Part shown: piece after piece, positions 54,541 to 64,000 of the stretch
Layout of the letters: each line of letters begins with the position of its first letter
Numbering within the stretch: position 1 is the first letter of the stretch
Assembly (NCBI GenBank): GCA_048939625.1
Contig: JBHLPH010000001.1
Location: 96,001 to 160,000, forward strand
Reading direction: 5' to 3'
Origin: Promethearchaeota archaeon
Lineage (GTDB): Archaea; Asgardarchaeota; Hermodarchaeia; Hermodarchaeales; Hermodarchaeaceae
DNA length: 64,000 bases
The notes under the pieces: generated by a model
Databases searched by the model: none
Seen by the model: only the letters and a program-made list of their open reading frames with translations
Told to the model about the DNA's origin: nothing
Made by a program: the position numbers and the translations under genes

Positions 54541-57402
54541 TTAACTGTTTCCCTTCCTTTGAGGTTCGTCTGTCTTCGATTCGAAGGTGGGTTCCCTTTG
54601 ATGTCGTTCACGATAGCGTAGAATGAACTTGAAGACTTCCACAACTACAAATATTGAGAAGGTGAGAAGAATGATGATGAGCCAATCTTGAAGAAGAAGA
54701 GGTTGTGTACGAAAAACAATTTGGAGTGGTGGAAAATAGATAATGAATAATTGGAGTATAATAGAAACAGCGATTGCAAGGATCAGATACCGATTTTTGA
54801 AAAAGCCCACTTGAAAGAGAGAGAGATGCCCTGACCGAGAATTCAGAGCATGCACCATCTGAGTCATCACCAGAACCGTTAAAGCTAGTGTACCCGCTCG
54901 AAGAACAGCTTGATCAGGTGATAAGTTGAATGGTGGATTTGTAAGGCTAAACATTGTAACATAATATATCCATAAAGTGGCAAGGGCAATGGCTACACCC
55001 ACCACCCATATTAGGACCCAGACCTGTCTTGTAATGATGCCTTCTTGGGGATCCCGGGGCCCCCGTTTCATCACATCAGGTTCCATGGGATCCATTCCCA
55101 ATGCGAGGGCAGGTAGTCCATCAGTAACCAGGTTAATGAATAGAATCTGAATAGCTAGCAGGGGTAGTGGCCAGCGGAAGATAATCGAGAGTGTGATGCT
55201 GGCTAGAAAGATGACTAGGATTTCTCCTGCATTACAAGATAAGAGATATGAAATAAATTTCCGGGTATTGTCTCCGATACCTCGACCTTCCTCAATGGCA
55301 TTCACTATCGAGGAGTAGTTATCATCTGTTAGGATCATATCAGAGGCTTCTTTAGCTACATCCGTTCCTGTGACACCCATAGCAATTCCGATGTCAGCGT
55401 ATTTGAGGGCAGGCGCATCGTTGACTCCATCACCTGTCATCGCTGTGATGTGCCCACGGGTTTTCAAAGCTTGAACAATCCGAAGCTTATGTTCAGGTGA
55501 GACACGAGCATAGACACGAACTTGGGGAGCAGCATCCGTGAGGTCAGCATCTGAAAGGGCATCGAGAGCACTACCAGTTAGGACTGCATCATCCTCTTCG
55601 AACATTCCGAGTTCGTTTGCAATGGCAAGCGCTGTATACTGGTTGTCGCCAGTAATCATGATAGATTTGATTCCCGCAGTCCGTGCTGTTTTAATAGCAT
55701 CGTATACTTCAGGACGAGGCGGATCCATCATCCCGACAAGTCCCACGAATACGAGATCAAATTCGATGCCTTCTGGTGAGATGTCGCAGAGATCTTCGGG
55801 ACAAATCCGGTACGCCATTCCCAGAACACGGAGGGCTTTGTTAGCCATTTTATCATTGTTGCTTAAGATTTCAGCGCGTTGTTCTTTGGTTAGGGCTTGA
55901 ATTCCGTTAGCTGTAAATATGTAGGAACTTTGCTCCAGAACAACTTCAGGAGCACCCTTGATGTAAGCAGTTGTCTCCTGTTCGGGCGTATCATGGAGCG
56001 TGGACATACGTTTTCTATCAGGATCAAAGGGCAATTCGGCAATCCTAGGATATTCATTTAGTTGCGTGTCAGTGAATCCTGCTTTCTGAGCTGCAACCAC
56101 CAAAGCTCCCTCAGTAGGATCACCTATTACATGCCATTTACCCTCTTCTTCCCGAATTATAGCATTACTACAAAGAACACCTATACGTAGAAGCAAGGCT
56201 AGTTGACCATTTTGTAAAGGATCAATTGGTTGACCGTCGGCTGAAAAGGAGCCCTCTGGAGAATATCCAGCGCCTGTGACATGCACAGAGTATCCGGGAA
56301 CATAGAGCTCACGGACTGTCATTTCATCTTTGGTTAGAGTACCGGTTTTATCAGAGCAAATAATATCAGCAGAGCCTAGGGTTTCAACGGCGGGAAGTCG
56401 TCGGATGATGGCATTTCGTTTCACCATCCGTTGGACGCCTAAAGCCAAAGTTATTGTTACCACTGCAGGTAGACCTTCTGGTATTGCGGCAACAGCGAGT
56501 GCTACAGCAATTACGAATAAGTCGAGGAAGGTCGAAAAAGTAAGCATGGCCATAATCCAAGCAACAACTACCTGAATGGTCAGCACAATCATACAGATAA
56601 TCAGAATCGCAATACCAAGTTGTCGCCCAAGTTGTCGCATGCGTTTCTGTTGAGGAGTTTCTTTTTCTCCCGCTTCTGAAATGAACCCTGCAATCCGTCC
56701 TATTTCAGTGTTCATCCCCGTTTCGGTCACAACTGCAAGACCTCGCCCAGAAGTGATTGCGGTACCTGCGTGGACCATATTGGATTGATCAGCTAGTGGG
56801 ATGTTACGATCAAGAATTCTGTCTGCTTCCTTTTTAACTGGCATCGATTCCCCTGTGAGCGATGCCTCGTCTGTATAGATATTATTGGACTCAATTAGCC
56901 TTGCATCTGCTGGGAGACGGTCACCCATTTCCAATCGTAGAATTTCACCTGGTACTACTTCCGTTGCTGGAATATCAATCGGTTCGCCATTTCGGAGCAC
57001 ATGCGCTTGAGGTGCTGCCATTTTTTGGAGAGCTTCAATAGATTTCTCAGCTCGATATTCCTGAGTGAAGCCAAGAATAGCATTGAGAATTACAATTATC
57101 ATGATAACAATGGCGTCAATAGGTGGTTCGGGATGCTCCGTTATGATTCCTGAGTAGACATTCACGACCAAGGAAATAATGGCTGCAAAAATCAGTATGA
57201 TGACTAACGCTTCTTTGAATTGTGAAAGAAACATGGAAAGGGGACCAGGGCCCTTGGCTTCTTCAAGAGCGTTTGGACCGTATTCAGCTAATCTGCGTTG
57301 TGCCTCTTCCAGACTGAGTCCATCTTCTGTGACTTGCAGCTGTTCCATGACTTGGGATGCATTCTGAGTATGAGGAGGAGGAATATCAGTCGTCAAGGAC
57401 AC
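54541..57402 (-). CDS. P-type cation-transporting ATPase (type IIA, Ca2+-like)
   Basis: TGES, PEGLP, DKTGT, KGAPE, GDGVND and NLVTDGLPA motifs. Confidence 0.92.
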   Translation of the reverse strand: MSLTTDIPPPHTQNASQVMEQLQVTEDGLSLEEAQRRLAEYGPNALEEAKGPGPLSMFLSQFKEALVIILIFAAIISLVVNVYSGIITEHPEPPIDAIVIMIIVILNAILGFTQEYRAEKSIEALQKMAAPQAHVLRNGEPIDIPATEVVPGEILRLEMGDRLPADARLIESNNIYTDEASLTGESMPVKKEADRILDRNIPLADQSNMVHAGTAITSGRGLAVVTETGMNTEIGRIAGFISEAGEKETPQQKRMRQLGRQLGIAILIICMIVLTIQVVVAWIMAMLTFSTFLDLFVIAVALAVAAIPEGLPAVVTITLALGVQRMVKRNAIIRRLPAVETLGSADIICSDKTGTLTKDEMTVRELYVPGYSVHVTGAGYSPEGSFSADGQPIDPLQNGQLALLLRIGVLCSNAIIREEEGKWHVIGDPTEGALVVAAQKAGFTDTQLNEYPRIAELPFDPDRKRMSTLHDTPEQETTAYIKGAPEVVLEQSSYIFTANGIQALTKEQRAEILSNNDKMANKALRVLGMAYRICPEDLCDISPEGIEFDLVFVGLVGMMDPPRPEVYDAIKTARTAGIKSIMITGDNQYTALAIANELGMFEEDDAVLTGSALDALSDADLTDAAPQVRVYARVSPEHKLRIVQALKTRGHITAMTGDGVNDAPALKYADIGIAMGVTGTDVAKEASDMILTDDNYSSIVNAIEEGRGIGDNTRKFISYLLSCNAGEILVIFLASITLSIIFRWPLPLLAIQILFINLVTDGLPALALGMDPMEPDVMKRGPRDPQEGIITRQVWVLIWVVGVAIALATLWIYYVTMFSLTNPPFNLSPDQAVLRAGTLALTVLVMTQMVHALNSRSGHLSLFQVGFFKNRYLILAIAVSIILQLFIIYFPPLQIVFRTQPLLLQDWLIIILLTFSIFVVVEVFKFILRYRERHQREPTFESKTDEPQRKGNS

Positions 57403-57509: not shown

Positions 57510-58163
57510 TTATGCACTAGGCTTTTCAACTGTCGTTTCCTTTGGAAAAAGTGTCTTGGCGATTTCGTGTCGATATTTCACTTCGACTTGTGAGAGTAAG
57601 GTCTCTATCCGATAATCCACGGTGATATTGCCTTCTTTGTTTTGAACCATAACGCCACCAATTATGCCAAGTGCTTGTTTTCCAACGGTGACTTTGGTAC
57701 TCTGATTAGTTGTTTTTGAAATTGCCGTTCCAAGACCTGTAATCTTTGAGATGACAGCGTGGTCTTCCTTTCGGGCAAGAACAATAAGATCCCCACCACC
57801 AACCTGAATTCCAGCATTGATGATGAGATTTTTCAGAAATGCCTTATATCGCGCAGTTCCTCGTTCCTTTTCAAATTGCGTCTGAGCTTCTTGGAACGCT
57901 GTATCGATCATCTTAGCTTTGGCACTCATTATCCGCATATGCGCATCATTTCGAGCTTTTCCTATAATTCGGTCACCTGATCGCTCAGCCATTTGCTTCC
58001 GACGGTCAGCCCAACCAGAGAGAGTGGATTGTGCGTTTTCTTGAGCAACCTCGATTAGTTCTCGTGCTGAGACTTCAGCTTTTTGGATAATCTGTTTAGC
58101 GTCAGCTTTTGCCTCACTAATAATCATTTGTTCGATTTGATCTGAAGACGAGATATTGCTCAT
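57510..58163 (-). CDS. atpE: A/V-type ATP synthase subunit E
   Basis: N-terminal coiled coil; IIGGVMV...ITVDY..E..L. Confidence 0.85.
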   Translation of the reverse strand: MSNISSSDQIEQMIISEAKADAKQIIQKAEVSARELIEVAQENAQSTLSGWADRRKQMAERSGDRIIGKARNDAHMRIMSAKAKMIDTAFQEAQTQFEKERGTARYKAFLKNLIINAGIQVGGGDLIVLARKEDHAVISKITGLGTAISKTTNQSTKVTVGKQALGIIGGVMVQNKEGNITVDYRIETLLSQVEVKYRHEIAKTLFPKETTVEKPSA

Positions 58164-58486
58164 TTGTTTGCACCTCCATATGAATAAACAGAAGAAACTA
58201 TGAGATCAACGGTTTTCTTCAAATGCTTCTTCCCTTGTTCCTCAATAGCGGCGGCTTCTTGCTCAGCTTTGGAAAGAATAGTTTTGGATTGCGTTTGAGC
58301 CTTTTTCTCTACACCCTTTTGCTGGGTAGCAATTTGCGCCGCCAGTTCATCCCGAACTTTCTGTTCAGTTTCGCGTGCCTGGCGTTCAGCCTCACGCTTA
58401 ATTTGCTCAGCTTTTGCTTGGGCTTCTTCAATAATCTTTGCAGCCTTAGCTTCGGCACTTTGGATACCAGATAAAACCTCGCTCAT
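58160..58486 (-). CDS. atpH: A/V-type ATP synthase subunit H/G (peripheral stalk)
   Basis: IQSAEAKAAKIIEEA coiled coil; overlaps the atpE start. Confidence 0.75.
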   Translation of the reverse strand: MSEVLSGIQSAEAKAAKIIEEAQAKAEQIKREAERQARETEQKVRDELAAQIATQQKGVEKKAQTQSKTILSKAEQEAAAIEEQGKKHLKKTVDLIVSSVYSYGGANK

Positions 58487-58654: not shown

Positions 58655-58903
58655 ATGGGAGCTTCGGTGACAGAGTTGAGTGATGAACCTCCAATGTCAG
58701 GTGGAAGGGTATTCCGTTATACCACGATCGCCTGCGAGATTCTCGTTTTTGCCTTTGTTGGATGGATTATTGGACCATATATCTGGGGACCAAACGGACA
58801 ATATCTTGGAGCCCTTATCGGAGCATTACTCGGTACTCTTATGATGTTTTGCACGCTGTTCTACCTAGCAGGACTCTTTGGAAGAAAGGAGAAACAAGCG
58901 TAA
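58655..58903 (+). CDS. Small 2-TM protein, AtpZ/AtpI ('gene 1')-like
   Basis: Two TM segments (FVGWIIG; GALIGALLG) directly before atpC. Confidence 0.5.
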   Translation: MGASVTELSDEPPMSGGRVFRYTTIACEILVFAFVGWIIGPYIWGPNGQYLGALIGALLGTLMMFCTLFYLAGLFGRKEKQA

Positions 58904-58943: not shown

Positions 58944-59993
58944 ATGTCCGTCGCACGATACAGTTTCATCAACGCTAAAATTAGAGGATATAAAGCCGAT
59001 ATGCTTACTTCTGAGCATTGGGATGCTCTTCTTGGTGCGCGAGACATGTATGCGGCCCTCCGTGTGCTCGATACAACCAGTTATGCCGATATCGTGAAGG
59101 ACTTTGATGAAACTGCGACGCCACAAGAGGTTGAACAAGCTCTGCAGCTAGACTTCAACCGTGTTCTTTCAGAAATCCGGACCGATGTCCCTAAAAGCGC
59201 CCAAACACTCATGAACTGGATTACACGAAAATTCCAACGAGAAGTTGTTAAACCCATCCTCCGACTTTTCGTTACTGAGAAAGATGCGAGTTTGGCAGAA
59301 CGTCTACTTGTGCCTGTGGATCCTTTCACAACAACCGTTCTGCTAGATCTGCTTTCAGCCAAAGACCTAAATGAATTTATAGACAAAATCCCCGATCGAT
59401 ATTTCAGAAATATAATCAGGGATAATCTGCCGAAATACGAGGAAACTAGCAGATTGGTAATTATCGAACAAGCCATTGACGCAGATATTTTGAATAACTT
59501 ATACTTGGAAGCCCAGAAACTCAAAGGTCTTGATAAAGACGTTACCTCAAAGCTTGCTGGTGTAGAAATTGATCTTGTGAACCTAATGATAACTCTTCGA
59601 ACTCACTTTCTCGGAATCGAGCAAGCAGACGCTGAAGCCCTTCTTCTCGATGCGGAATATCGCCTATCTCGTAATTTATGTAAAGAGGCATTAGCTGCAA
59701 GAAGCTTTGAGGAACGCGTACGAAAACTCCAAGAAAGTGTATATGGATCGATGATTGCCAAAAGCTGGGAAGCTTATGAATTACACCAAACGCTCTACAC
59801 TTTTGAGCACACATTTCATGAACAAATCCGACGAGATAGCACCGATGCACTCCTCGGGTATCCATTCCATCTGGGAATTGTCCTTGGCTACCTTAATCTG
59901 AAATGGTACGAAATCGTCAATTTGAAAGCCGTGATGAATGGAAAAGCTGATCAAATTGATCCAAATATAATCCGTCGCGTCCTTATCCTATAA
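58944..59993 (+). CDS. atpC: A/V-type ATP synthase subunit C (V0 d-like)
   Basis: RYSFINAKIRG, EIDLVNL..LR and YLNLKWYEIVNLK motifs. Confidence 0.88.
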   Translation: MSVARYSFINAKIRGYKADMLTSEHWDALLGARDMYAALRVLDTTSYADIVKDFDETATPQEVEQALQLDFNRVLSEIRTDVPKSAQTLMNWITRKFQREVVKPILRLFVTEKDASLAERLLVPVDPFTTTVLLDLLSAKDLNEFIDKIPDRYFRNIIRDNLPKYEETSRLVIIEQAIDADILNNLYLEAQKLKGLDKDVTSKLAGVEIDLVNLMITLRTHFLGIEQADAEALLLDAEYRLSRNLCKEALAARSFEERVRKLQESVYGSMIAKSWEAYELHQTLYTFEHTFHEQIRRDSTDALLGYPFHLGIVLGYLNLKWYEIVNLKAVMNGKADQIDPNIIRRVLIL

Positions 59994-62022: not shown

Positions 62023-63915
62023 TTAAATCTGCATGATGAGCATGAACGCCACAAGCAGCGTATAAATAGCAAGGGCTTCCGCTAACACCACTGGCACCAT
62101 GGACTTACTGAATACTTCTGGTTTATTCACCAAGGCACCTACCATGGAGGCACCAGCCCACCCAATCGCGACACCTGCGACGAGACCACCAAGGCCAACC
62201 GTCAAAGCAGCAGACAATCCCGTAAATGCTGTCGACATTGTTACTGTATCCATCCGCATGACTAACATAAAGGCAGCTAACAAACCGTAAATGCCGAGAG
62301 CCTCTGCCAGCACAACACTGACCAGCCCTTTACTGAAGGTTTCAGGAGCAAACCGCAGACTAGCACATAACGCAGCACCACCAAGCCCAATACCAATCCC
62401 TCCACCCAAAGCGGCAAGGGAAATTGAAGATCCCGCAGATATTGCCATAATTCCTTGCGCCATCGCTTGTGCGACATCAGGAGCAGCCGCTACCGTATCG
62501 ATACGCATCACAACCATAAAGCCAATTAACAAACCGTAAATGCCGAGAGCCTCTGCCAGCACAACACTGACCAGCCCTTTACTGAAAGCTTCAGGTCGCT
62601 CAGCTATCGTTTGACTGAGTGACTCGCCAGCATAAGCAATACCAAAGCCAGCACCGATACAGGATACACCAATTGCAATACCTGCACCTATACCCATAAG
62701 TCCTTGTGCGACAGCGAAGCCGGGATCTGTGCTGAGTCCGTCGATTCGCATGATTAACATGAAACTTAATAGTAGCCCATAAATGCCGAGGGCCTCTGCT
62801 AGCACAACGCTAACAAGACTCTTTGAGAATGCATCTGGGGCCCGGACTAGACTTCGACTCAACGCACCACCAGCTTTGGAAATACCATACCCAGCCCCAA
62901 TCGCGGCGAGTCCTATAGCCATGCCTGCAGCGAGACCTACTAATCCCTCCCCAAACAAAGCGACCTGCTCTATTCGCATTAGCAACATGAAACTTGCTAA
63001 TAAGCCGTAAATTCCCAAGGCCTCTGCCAGCACCACGGCGACTAAGCCCTTGCTAAATATCTCCGGCTTCTCGACAAGACTATCGGAGAGGGCTTCACCT
63101 GCTGAAGCGATACCAATTCCTGCACCAAGTGCTGCTAGCCCTATAGCGAGCCCAGCAGCCAGTGCAATTGTTCCAGCAGCAAGTTGTTGTTCGAGGGCTC
63201 CAGTGATTTGTTCGATTCGCATTAGGAGCATGAAACTTGCTAATAAGCCGTAAATTCCCAAAGCCTCTGCAAGCACAACACTGACCAGCCCTTTACTGAA
63301 GGTTTCAGGAGCACGAACCAAACTCTTGCACAGAGATGAGCCAGATTTAGCAATTCCAATGCCTGCACCAACCGCAGCGATACCGATTGCAAGTCCTGCG
63401 GCAATAGCAATGAGCCCCGCTCCAGGATTCGTAGCCACAGCACCTTCAATACGCATGAGAAGCATGAAGCTTGCTAGCAACCCGTAAATGCCAAGGGCCT
63501 CAGCTAACACAACTGAAACGAGGGCTTTACTGAAGGTTTCAGGGGCCTCCGCTAGACTGGTGCACATGCTACTCCCAGCATAGGCAATGCCAATCCCTGC
63601 CCCGATGGCTGCAATACCAATCGAGAGTCCGGCTCCGAGGGCAATCATGCCTTGGACCATATTGGTGATTGATGGTAGACGCATGAGTATCATGAATGAA
63701 GCGAGTAAGCCGTAAATTCCCAAGGCCTCTGCGAGGACAACAGCAATCATGCTTTTGCTGAAGGTTTCAGGTTTTTCGGCGATGGTGCCGATCATGGCGC
63801 TACCGCTGAAGCCGATGCCGATGGCGGCGCCTGCGGCGCCGAGTCCGGCAGCCAGGAGCGCGCCGAATGTGGCAAGAACCTGTCCCATGGCTTCTGGGGG
63901 TATCAGCTGCAGCAT
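62023..63915 (-). CDS. atpK: A/V-type ATP synthase proteolipid (subunit K/c) with 8 fused hairpins
   Basis: Eight copies of P(E/D)xFSKxxxxVVLAEALxIY, each after a Gly/Ala-rich helix; ATG 63915 lies 5 nt after the atpI stop. Confidence 0.92.
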   Translation of the reverse strand: MLQLIPPEAMGQVLATFGALLAAGLGAAGAAIGIGFSGSAMIGTIAEKPETFSKSMIAVVLAEALGIYGLLASFMILMRLPSITNMVQGMIALGAGLSIGIAAIGAGIGIAYAGSSMCTSLAEAPETFSKALVSVVLAEALGIYGLLASFMLLMRIEGAVATNPGAGLIAIAAGLAIGIAAVGAGIGIAKSGSSLCKSLVRAPETFSKGLVSVVLAEALGIYGLLASFMLLMRIEQITGALEQQLAAGTIALAAGLAIGLAALGAGIGIASAGEALSDSLVEKPEIFSKGLVAVVLAEALGIYGLLASFMLLMRIEQVALFGEGLVGLAAGMAIGLAAIGAGYGISKAGGALSRSLVRAPDAFSKSLVSVVLAEALGIYGLLLSFMLIMRIDGLSTDPGFAVAQGLMGIGAGIAIGVSCIGAGFGIAYAGESLSQTIAERPEAFSKGLVSVVLAEALGIYGLLIGFMVVMRIDTVAAAPDVAQAMAQGIMAISAGSSISLAALGGGIGIGLGGAALCASLRFAPETFSKGLVSVVLAEALGIYGLLAAFMLVMRMDTVTMSTAFTGLSAALTVGLGGLVAGVAIGWAGASMVGALVNKPEVFSKSMVPVVLAEALAIYTLLVAFMLIMQI

Positions 63916-63920
63916 TGCTA

Positions 63921-64000
63921 TCACTTCTTGGTGGTTGGTTCGGTGGTGGTCCATTTATCAGGGAGTTCGAGAGGCGTATACTCATACCCCGTGCCAGCAT
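63921..64000 (-). CDS. atpI: C-terminal end of A/V-type ATP synthase subunit I (partial)
   Basis: Frame reads AGTGYEYTPLELPDKWTTTEPTTKK*, matching the subunit a/I terminal GxGxxYxP pattern; immediately upstream of atpK. Confidence 0.65.
   Translation of the reverse strand, partial: AGTGYEYTPLELPDKWTTTEPTTKK

What the first reader, a model, noticed from the sequence alone, without database searches (positions are those of the whole stretch)
62023..63915. ATP synthase proteolipid with eight fused, all-Glu-bearing hairpins: possible single-chain c8 or two-chain c16 rotor
Seen: a 630-aa ORF with eight hairpin repeats joined by short, variable linkers; every repeat keeps the ion-binding Glu (LAEAL). 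The Glu is followed by Ala, not Ser/Thr, and the first helices lack the Gln of the Na+ motif. Known: archaeal proteolipids usually have 1-3 hairpins, Methanopyrus kandleri has a 13-hairpin gene, c8 is the smallest known F-type ring, and eukaryotic V-type c has two hairpins with one Glu. Inference: the rotor is H+-coupled and its size is genetically fixed at a multiple of 8, giving about 2.7 or 5.3 H+/ATP. That would bear on energetics and on V-ATPase origins if the lineage is Asgard.
Basis: partly seen in the sequence, partly recalled or inferred. Interest (0 to 1): 0.85.

Follow-up and report, generated by a model that had tools for sequence, protein, structure and literature searches.

The report
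Eight-hairpin ATP synthase rotor subunit
An uncultured Asgard archaeon (Hermodarchaeota) encodes the proton-carrying rotor subunit of its only rotary ATP synthase as one protein of eight fused, all-active units; because sister species use a 15-unit version with interchangeable partner subunits, two copies most likely build a 16-site ring that would let the cell make ATP from a weak proton gradient.

Summary
Observation confirmed. Window 62023-63915 (-) encodes a 630-aa proteolipid (643 aa from an upstream ATG) with eight ATP-synt_C hairpins, each carrying the helix-2 Glu in VVLAEAL. It follows subunit I directly and is the only c gene of the only A-type ATP synthase in this Hermodarchaeota MAG.

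It is not a misassembly. The DNA repeats are only 67-90% alike, 12 other protein clusters from independent assemblies have the same eight units, and dN/dS against a congener is about 0.004.

Two of the three Na+ ligands are missing, so H+ coupling is predicted.

Congeners carry a 15-hairpin gene at the same locus, and a sister genus has 7 + 3. No chain of 9-14 hairpins turned up. Partner subunits a and d do not sort by c type, and the c and I trees conflict, so c types were exchanged on a resident a/d background.

My reading is two chains forming a 16-site ring, about 5.3 H+/ATP (~0.55). A single-chain c8 ring is less likely (~0.2).

The scan had already found this 8-hairpin gene and its 15-hairpin relatives on other DNA, with the same reading. 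The papers I could search still name Methanopyrus (13 hairpins) as the extreme.

The parts
62023..63915 (-). Proteolipid (subunit c/K) gene: 630 aa plus stop from Met14. An alternative upstream ATG at 63954 gives 643 aa.
   Evidence: ORF and translation; Pfam PF00137 x8; orthologue starts.
63667..63885 (-). Hairpin 1, the N-terminal type. It is orthologous to hairpin 1 of the 15-hairpin and 7-hairpin relatives.
   Evidence: HMM envelope, residues 24-96; 79% identity to hairpin 1 of the 15-mer; 64% on variable columns.
63442..63654 (-). Hairpin 2, orthologous to hairpin 2 of the 15-mer.
   Evidence: Residues 101-171.
62737..63420 (-). Hairpins 3-5, the generic internal type. They are 69-80% identical to one another and to hairpin 2.
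   Evidence: Residues 179-250, 259-331 and 335-406; self-matrix.
62242..62709 (-). Hairpins 6 and 7, individually distinct (GFMVVMR; GGGIGIG...ALC). Their positional orthologues are kept in the sister-genus 8-mer.
   Evidence: Residues 416-488 and 499-571; diagonal of G000 vs G017b.
62026..62232 (-). Hairpin 8, the C-terminal type (GWAG, KSMVPVV, AIYTLL). It is orthologous to hairpin 15 of the 15-mer and to the last hairpin of the 7-mer.
   Evidence: Residues 575-643; 74-75% identity to hairpin 15; sequences.
63921..64000 (-). 3' end of the subunit I (a) gene. The whole gene is 648 aa at G000:C9:159921-161867. Its stop lies 5 nt before the c start.
   Evidence: ORF list; tblastn and Pfam V_ATPase_I in relatives.
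58944..59993 (+). Subunit C (the V-type d subunit), 349 aa. This is the rotor socket that sits on the c ring.
   Evidence: Pfam vATP-synt_AC39, 1.1e-53, full length 1-338 of 339.
57510..58486 (-). Subunits H (58160-58486) and E (57510-58163), the peripheral stalk.
   Evidence: Pfam vATP-synt_E, 7e-27; weak V-ATPase_G_2 for the 108-aa ORF.

Best explanation
The gene encodes the single rotor proteolipid (subunit c/K) of the organism's only A-type ATP synthase, as eight covalently linked two-helix hairpins. Each hairpin has a protonatable Glu, so one chain carries eight H+ sites. It is co-transcribed or translationally coupled with stator subunit I.

Shown here: eight intact units under very strong purifying selection, an H+-type site, one c gene per genome, and the same architecture in many independent assemblies.

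Inferred: two chains assemble head-to-tail into one ring of 16 hairpins (32 helices) with two non-covalent seams, each between a C-type hairpin 8 and an N-type hairpin 1. This gives 16 H+ per turn, or 5.33 H+/ATP. That is close to the 15-hairpin single-chain ring of congeners (5.0).

Such a high ratio allows ATP synthesis at roughly 100 mV. That figure uses pmf = dGp/(nF) and assumes dGp of about 50 kJ/mol. It fits an energy-limited anaerobic sediment archaeon.
For: Gene and sites.

Only c gene in the genome. One copy each of A, B, F and D and of C, E and H.

Real and selected:
- 12 other 8-hairpin clusters, 613-644 aa and 62-97% identical, come from NCBI, JGI, ENA and Logan.
- Every hairpin best matches its positional counterpart in a sister-genus 8-mer.
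- G000 versus G010 shows 17 aa changes in 630 residues while pS is 0.74, so dN/dS is about 0.004.

H+ type: Gln32 and Ser/Thr66 equivalents are missing. The best PDB sequence hits are eukaryotic H+ V-ATPase c''/c.

Ring of about 16:
1. Seven congeners carry a 15-hairpin ORF (1146-1147 aa) at the same I-c-ThiF locus.
2. Hermod-type chains in 5.8 billion proteins have 3, 7, 8 or 15 hairpins. None has 9-14 and none has more than 15. The apparent 11 and 14 are a scaffold gap and a miscalled start. Across other archaea the counts also fall into two groups, 4-9 and 12-13. This is what a minimum full ring of about 12 or more, plus half-ring chains, would give.
3. Partner subunits do not sort by c type. 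The d subunit of G010 (8-type) is 81% identical and sister to that of G011 (15-type), closer than to the other 8-types at 76-77%. Subunit I of the 8-types nests inside the 15-type grade.
4. A tree of the terminal hairpins splits 15-mers from all 8- and 7-mers at 100/100, which conflicts with the I tree. A c type was therefore exchanged on a resident a/d background, and that works only if ring geometry is nearly the same.
5. Solved A/V rings contain 12 hairpins (Thermus c12; PMC7367684) to 20 hairpin-equivalents (E. hirae K10 and eukaryotic c rings; background knowledge). Sixteen lies inside this range and eight lies outside.
6. Subunit d is full size, 349 aa.
Against: There is no direct evidence on stoichiometry.

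AlphaFold2 folds the single chain with high confidence (pLDDT 90.9, pTM 0.89). The tool returns no coordinates, so a closed eight-hairpin ring cannot be excluded and may be what was predicted.

The sister genus's 7 + 3 pair, if 1:1 and in single copy, would give a 10-hairpin ring. That would make small rings plausible in this family.

No fused 16-mer was found.

The partner-subunit argument assumes that 75-81% identical a and d subunits cannot serve rings of twofold different diameter. That is reasonable but untested.

MAG completeness is 87.6%, so an unlinked second c gene is not strictly excluded.
Confidence: 0.55

Rival explanations
1. Single-chain c8 ring. One polypeptide closes on itself into an 8-hairpin, 16-helix rotor with 8 H+ per turn (2.67 H+/ATP). 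This would be the smallest ring in any A/V-type enzyme and would suit ATP-driven proton pumping in a fermenter.
For: Whole-ring fusions are the accepted reading for Methanopyrus (13) and the natural reading for the 15-mers. AF2 folds the monomer very confidently. Eight units is conserved across two genera. 7 + 3 = 10 in the sister genus would be a neighbouring small size. Bovine F-type c8 shows that 8 hairpins can form a ring (background knowledge).
Against: Partner subunits a and d are shared with 15-hairpin genomes, and the c type was swapped against the I phylogeny. No 9-14-hairpin chains exist, which would be expected if any size from 8 to 15 were viable. All solved A/V rings have 12 or more hairpins and hold a full-size d subunit, and d here is full size. 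Synthesis at 2.67 H+/ATP would need about 190-200 mV, assuming dGp of about 50 kJ/mol.
Confidence: 0.2
2. Three or more chains per ring (c24 or larger), giving 8 or more H+/ATP.
For: Any multiple of 8 is formally allowed. The number of c copies per ring is not fixed by the gene.
Against: It would be much larger than the congeners' 15 and than any solved A/V ring (20 hairpin-equivalents). The same partner-subunit argument applies.
Confidence: 0.07
3. Heteromeric ring: the 8-hairpin chain combines with a second proteolipid that is missing from the bin, as in the 7 + 3 system of the sister genus.
For: G015 and G018 have two adjacent c genes. The MAG is 87.6% complete.
Against: No second PF00137 match was found in G000, G010 or G012. 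In the 7 + 3 genomes the second gene is adjacent, whereas here ThiF follows the c gene.
Confidence: 0.04
4. Artefact or processed precursor: the repeat number comes from misassembly, or the polyprotein is cleaved into single hairpins.
For: Logan contigs of four runs tile the gene, but none spans it. Short-read assemblies can miscount repeats.
Against: The units are 67-90% identical at DNA level and each is unique. Twelve independent clusters and three other genomes give eight units in positional register. No alternative joints appear in the laid contigs. Linkers are short, variable and carry no conserved cleavage motif. The terminal hairpins are specialised, which makes sense only if the chain stays intact.
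Confidence: 0.04

Closest known systems
Methanopyrus kandleri A-ATP synthase subunit K (1021 aa, 13 hairpins; Lolkema & Boekema 2003, as cited in PMC2359735)
   Same: Many c hairpins are fused in one ORF and every hairpin keeps its carboxylate. It is the single c gene next to subunit I. I recovered it as P0035 with 13 of 13 Glu.
   Different: 13 units are deduced to close a ring alone, whereas 8 probably do not. Methanopyrus has the full Na+ ligand set (Glu-Thr), and here it is Glu-Ala. Identity is only 31%, and the lineage is unrelated (Methanopyri versus Asgard), so the fusion is independent.
15-hairpin c subunits of congeneric Hermodarchaeota (G001, G002, G003, G006, G011, G014; P0122-P0125). 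Unpublished as far as I could search, but noted earlier by this scan.
   Same: Same locus (I-c-ThiF) and same Glu-Ala site. The first, second and last hairpins are orthologous. Partner subunits are 59-81% (d) and 64-75% (I) identical.
   Different: Seven more internal hairpins. The terminal hairpins form a separate clade at 100/100. Presumably a one-chain ring of 15 rather than a two-chain ring of 16.
Multi-hairpin c subunits that must oligomerise: Methanocaldococcus jannaschii (3 hairpins; PMC2359735), E. hirae NtpK and eukaryotic V-type c (2 hairpins), and the 6-hairpin Methanomicrobiales forms seen.
   Same: Several hairpins per chain, and several chains per ring. Hairpin pairs of the AF2 model fit V-type c and NtpK at 1.3-1.7 A.
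   Different: Those forms usually lose one carboxylate per chain (5 of 6 in Methanomicrobiales, 1 of 2 in NtpK and V-type c). Here all 8 of 8 are kept, so fusion does not lower the ion/ATP ratio.
Bovine mitochondrial F-type c8 ring (background knowledge)
   Same: Eight hairpins and eight carboxylates, if the single-chain reading were true.
   Different: It is F-type, made of eight separate chains, and has no d-subunit socket. It is not homologous at the level of ring architecture.

Membership tests
A/V-type ATPase proteolipid, subunit c/K (Pfam PF00137) | Two-helix hairpin matching ATP-synt_C above the gathering score | tested here: met
   8 stretches, 417.6 bits against a cut-off of 24. Each unit scores 48-68 bits alone.
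A/V-type ATPase proteolipid, subunit c/K (Pfam PF00137) | Conserved carboxylate in the middle of the second helix | tested here: met
   Glu in VVLAEAL in 8 of 8 hairpins.
A/V-type ATPase proteolipid, subunit c/K (Pfam PF00137) | Encoded with the other A-type subunits, next to subunit I (a) | tested here: met
   Subunit I's stop lies 5 nt upstream. C, H and E are in the window. F, A and B are on C36 and D is on C63.
A/V-type ATPase proteolipid, subunit c/K (Pfam PF00137) | Forms the rotating ring of the assembled enzyme | not testable with these tools
   Needs purification and structure.
Monomeric-rotor class (whole ring in one chain, Methanopyrus type) | Enough hairpins in one chain to close a ring of A/V size (12 or more in solved or deduced cases) | tested here: not met
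   8 hairpins. Solved or deduced A/V rings have 12-20 (and background knowledge). Single-chain candidates in public data have 12, 13 or 15.
Monomeric-rotor class (whole ring in one chain, Methanopyrus type) | Every hairpin keeps the ion site | tested here: met
   8 of 8 Glu.
Na+-binding c subunits | Gln/Glu32, Glu65 and Ser/Thr66 ligand set (I. tartaricus numbering; PMC2359735) | tested here: not met
   Position 32 equivalents are K/A/A/K/A/R/A/K and position 66 equivalents are Ala in all eight. Only Glu65 and Tyr70 are kept.
Eukaryotic V-type c (16-kDa proteolipid) | Two hairpins with a single carboxylate | tested here: not met
   There is one Glu per hairpin here. V-type c is nevertheless the best PDB sequence and fold match.

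The most novel reading that the evidence does not exclude
The chain closes on itself into a one-polypeptide c8 rotor. This would be the smallest ring of any A/V-type enzyme (2.67 H+/ATP), in the same genus as a one-polypeptide c15 rotor (5.0 H+/ATP). Close relatives with interchangeable stator and socket subunits would then run rotary motors of nearly twofold different gearing.
Probability: 0.18. Interest if true: 0.9.

Novelty: new variant of a known kind. Interest (0 to 1): 0.62.

Why it matters
The number of c-ring sites sets the H+/ATP ratio, a basic bioenergetic parameter. It normally cannot be read from sequence. Here the gene fixes it to a multiple of 8, and to 15 in congeners, so the ratio becomes predictable and testable in Asgard archaea, the closest known relatives of eukaryotes.

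A 16- or 15-site ring would be among the highest gear ratios proposed for an A-type synthase. That fits life at very low energy yield.

The 8, 15 and 7 + 3 series within one family is a natural experiment on how ring size, chain fusion and partner subunits co-evolve. These naturally concatenated rings would also be useful reagents for structural and single-molecule work, which has so far relied on engineered fusions.

Tried and rejected
1. Ring closure from AlphaFold2. The 8-mer model is confident and the 15-mer control is poor (pLDDT 60). No coordinates are returned, so curvature per hairpin could not be measured.
2. ESM Atlas fold search gave only unrelated membrane proteins at TM 0.36 or below.
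3. Foldseek against the PDB matches only two-hairpin stretches. The 1.3-1.7 A fit to units of 20-hairpin rings is too coarse to tell 8 from 16.
4. Laying Logan contigs of four runs from three studies: they tile the gene without alternative joints, but no piece spans the repeats, so this neither confirms nor refutes the unit number.
5. A two-copy complex prediction was not run, because 2 x 630 residues exceeds the 1000-residue limit. A c + d job was judged unable to discriminate.
6. Hypothesis that the 15-mer is a head-to-tail fusion of two 8-mers minus one (8 + 8 - 1): rejected. No internal hairpin of the 15-mer resembles a terminal type.
7. Hypothesis of a recent transfer of the c gene between G000 and G010 (97% protein identity against 75% for subunit I): rejected. 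The DNA is only about 80% identical, so the pattern is purifying selection.
8. Apparent 11- and 14-hairpin proteins (P0011, P0002) are a scaffold N-gap and a miscalled start.
9. Literature: no paper in the library links Asgard archaea with multi-hairpin proteolipids. The founding Hermodarchaeota paper never mentions ATPase.

Full report
THE OBSERVATION

The minus strand of the window holds an ORF at 62023-63954, 643 aa from the first ATG. Pfam ATP-synt_C matches eight times (E = 6.1e-128). The motif LAEAL occurs eight times at a spacing of 75-83 residues.

A hairpin HMM built from the eight units cuts the protein into eight full-length hairpins joined by linkers of 3-10 residues. That is the better start for two reasons. 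Subunit I's TGA stop lies five bases upstream of it (sequence; ORFs). All orthologues begin MLQLIPPEAMGQ.

IS IT REAL?

The units are not identical copies. The best-conserved 105 nt are 67-90% alike between units, and Tandem Repeats Finder reports no array.

A search of 5.8 billion proteins returned 12 further clusters with exactly eight hairpins. They are 613-644 aa long, 62-97% identical, and come from NCBI, JGI, ENA and Logan assemblies. Three other species-level genomes have the same architecture (G010, G012, G017b).

Against the sister-genus 8-mer, each hairpin best matches its positional counterpart. The eightfold architecture is therefore old and each position evolves on its own.

Between G000 and G010 there are only 17 amino-acid changes in 630 residues, while 74% of synonymous sites differ. 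This gives dN/dS of about 0.004.

Logan contigs from three studies tile the gene without alternative joints, but none spans it. That test was neutral.

CONTEXT

The window is G000:C9:96001-160000 of a 2.31-Mb MAG (87.6% complete, 6.3% contamination). Record titles of relatives name Candidatus Hermodarchaeota, an Asgard lineage. Several are labelled Promethearchaeota, Thor- or Odinarchaeota by their depositors.

The c gene is the only PF00137 match in the genome. Subunit I lies directly upstream. ThiF follows downstream. Subunits C (d), H and E lie within 4 kb. F-A-B are on contig C36 and D is on C63, one copy each. There is one rotary ATPase and one proteolipid.

ION SPECIFICITY

PMC2359735 lists Gln/Glu32, Glu65 and Ser/Thr66 as the Na+ ligands, and notes that all 13 Methanopyrus hairpins keep them.

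Here the residue before the loop Pro is K/A/A/K/A/R/A/K, and the residue after Glu is always Ala. By contrast, nearly all Glu-bearing hairpins of the multi-hairpin proteins from other archaea carry Glu-Thr (one is Glu-Ser).

The best PDB sequence matches are eukaryotic H+ V-ATPase c'' and c (about 3e-14), ahead of Thermus K and E. hirae NtpK. Proton coupling is therefore predicted, but it has not been measured.

RELATIVES CHANGE THE PICTURE

A PF00137 scan of 40 related genomes showed that the same genus also carries 15-hairpin ORFs of 1146-1147 aa: G001, G002, G003, G006, G011 and G014, with G007 split by a contig end. The sister genus carries a 7-hairpin ORF followed by a gene with a roughly 320-aa N-terminal domain rich in N-x-S/T sequons plus 3 hairpins. 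The rest of the phylum has open frames of 59-168 aa over its matches.

The 15-mers sit at the same locus, with I upstream and ThiF downstream. In the protein database, Hermod-type (Glu-Ala) chains have 3, 7, 8 or 15 hairpins. An apparent 11 is the part after a scaffold N-gap, an apparent 14 has a miscalled start, and nothing exceeds 15.

In the other archaea (Glu-Thr type) the counts are 4-9 and 12-13, with no 10 or 11. One bacterial CPR-like protein, in which my model finds no Glu, has 10.

HOW THE 8-MER AND THE 15-MER RELATE

Hairpins 1, 2 and 8 of the 8-mer correspond to hairpins 1, 2 and 15 of the 15-mer. The terminal hairpins are special types, only 43-59% identical to the internal ones. 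Signature residues suggest that hairpins 6 and 7 correspond to 13 and 14 of the 15-mer (read from the sequences).

No internal hairpin of the 15-mer looks like a terminal one, so it is not a recent end-to-end fusion. The two forms differ by seven internal generic units.

Both chains of the 7 + 3 system start with an N-type hairpin and end with a C-type hairpin. If both chains sit in one ring, as assumed, rings with more than one non-covalent C-type/N-type seam exist in this family.

ONE CHAIN OR TWO?

No direct test was possible, so I used comparative evidence.

(a) Partner subunits. All-against-all identities and ML trees show that subunits a (I) and d (C) do not sort by c type. The d subunit of G010 (8-type) is 81% identical and sister (88/96 support) to that of G011 (15-type). 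It is 76-77% identical to the other 8-types. In the I tree, the 8-type clade (G010,(G000,G012)) is nested within a grade of 15-type genomes with 97-100% support.

(b) Conflicting trees. A tree of hairpin 1 + hairpin 2 + last hairpin separates all 15-mers from all 8- and 7-mers at 100/100. This conflicts with the I tree. At least once, one c type replaced the other while the resident a and d lineages continued. That is easy if (c8)2 = 16 is close to 15. It is hard if the ring halves or doubles.

(c) The gap in chain lengths. If any single-chain ring from 8 to 15 hairpins were viable, repeat arrays this prone to unequal recombination should show intermediate lengths. None of 9-14 appears.

(d) Known rings. 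Solved A/V rings range from Thermus c12 (PMC7367684) to 20 hairpin-equivalents (background knowledge). Each carries a full-size d subunit, and d here is full size.

(e) Energetics. With dGp of about 50 kJ/mol, 5.33 H+/ATP needs about 100 mV and 2.67 needs about 195 mV. This is my calculation, and the value of dGp is assumed. Hermodarchaeota are described as anaerobic sediment organisms (PMC8163825).

AGAINST THE TWO-CHAIN READING

AlphaFold2 folds the single chain very confidently (pLDDT 90.9, pTM 0.89). Because no coordinates are returned, I cannot say whether it is a closed ring or an arc.

The 7 + 3 pair could be a 10-ring. No 16-mer exists. I therefore put (c8)2 at about 0.55, c8 at about 0.2, and the remainder on larger or mixed rings and artefacts.

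NOVELTY

The library holds no paper that links Asgard archaea with multi-hairpin proteolipids. A bioRxiv preprint dated October 2026 still gives Methanopyrus (13 hairpins, 4.3 ions/ATP) as the extreme case. The founding Hermodarchaeota paper does not mention ATPase.

Within this scan, the same 8-hairpin gene and the 15-hairpin and 7 + 3 relatives were already reported on other DNA, with the same reading. I reached the 15-hairpin observation independently. The partner-subunit and tree-conflict tests are my own; I did not see the full earlier reports.

It is a new variant of a known kind: fused proteolipids, with Methanopyrus as the precedent.

Noticed in passing
L029-L034 (G001, G002, G003, G006, G011, G014), e.g. 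L033:3875-7318 (+): Congeneric genomes carry a 15-hairpin, all-Glu proteolipid ORF (1146-1147 aa) at the same I-c-ThiF locus. That is two hairpins more than Methanopyrus kandleri.
   Followed up: yes
L039:2523-5769 (-) (G015) and L040:1842-5088 (-) (G018): The sister genus has a 7-hairpin c gene that overlaps a second gene. The second gene encodes a roughly 320-aa N-terminal domain with a hydrophobic leader and many N-x-S/T sequons, fused to 3 hairpins. Both chains have N-type first and C-type last hairpins.
   Followed up: partly
window 62023-63915 versus L038 (G012): Against G012 the flanking genes are 82-95% identical at DNA level, but the interior of the c gene is only 64-76%. G010's c gene is about 80% identical throughout. 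The repeat array seems to be a recombination or replacement hot spot.
   Followed up: partly
trees: The subunit I, subunit d and c-terminal-hairpin trees are mutually incongruent within the genus. For example, G011 pairs with G006 for I but with G010 for d. This suggests reassortment of ATPase genes among species.
   Followed up: partly
L085:4801-9637 (+) (G000:C36): The ATP synthase genes are dispersed over three contigs. In the F-A-B cluster, a 358-aa ORF with an AbrB/MazE-type domain sits between A and B.
   Followed up: no
proteins P0028-P0121: Multi-hairpin proteolipids are widespread in public data. Methanomicrobiales have 6 hairpins, with no Glu found at the expected position of the first. 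Thermoplasmata have 6 hairpins fused to PKD domains. DPANN-like and other archaea have 12-13 hairpins with 9-13 Glu. CPR bacteria (Gracilibacteria, Vampirococcus) have 7-10 hairpins with no Glu at the expected position.
   Followed up: partly
window 54541-57402 (-): A 953-aa P2-type cation ATPase (Cation_ATPase_N and _C domains, as in eukaryotic Ca2+ or Na+/K+ pumps) lies directly downstream of ATP synthase subunit E.
   Followed up: no
window 58655-58903 (+): An 82-aa glycine-zipper membrane ORF lies between the divergent H-E and C genes of the ATP synthase. It may be a small accessory membrane protein.
   Followed up: no
L041 (G017:C282) versus L030 (G002:C9): A sister-genus MAG holds an 8.7-kb contig whose subunit I is 100% identical to that of G002 and whose 15-hairpin c gives nearly identical hairpin scores. 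This is probably a mis-binned contig. That MAG's own c gene is the 8-hairpin one on C318.
   Followed up: partly
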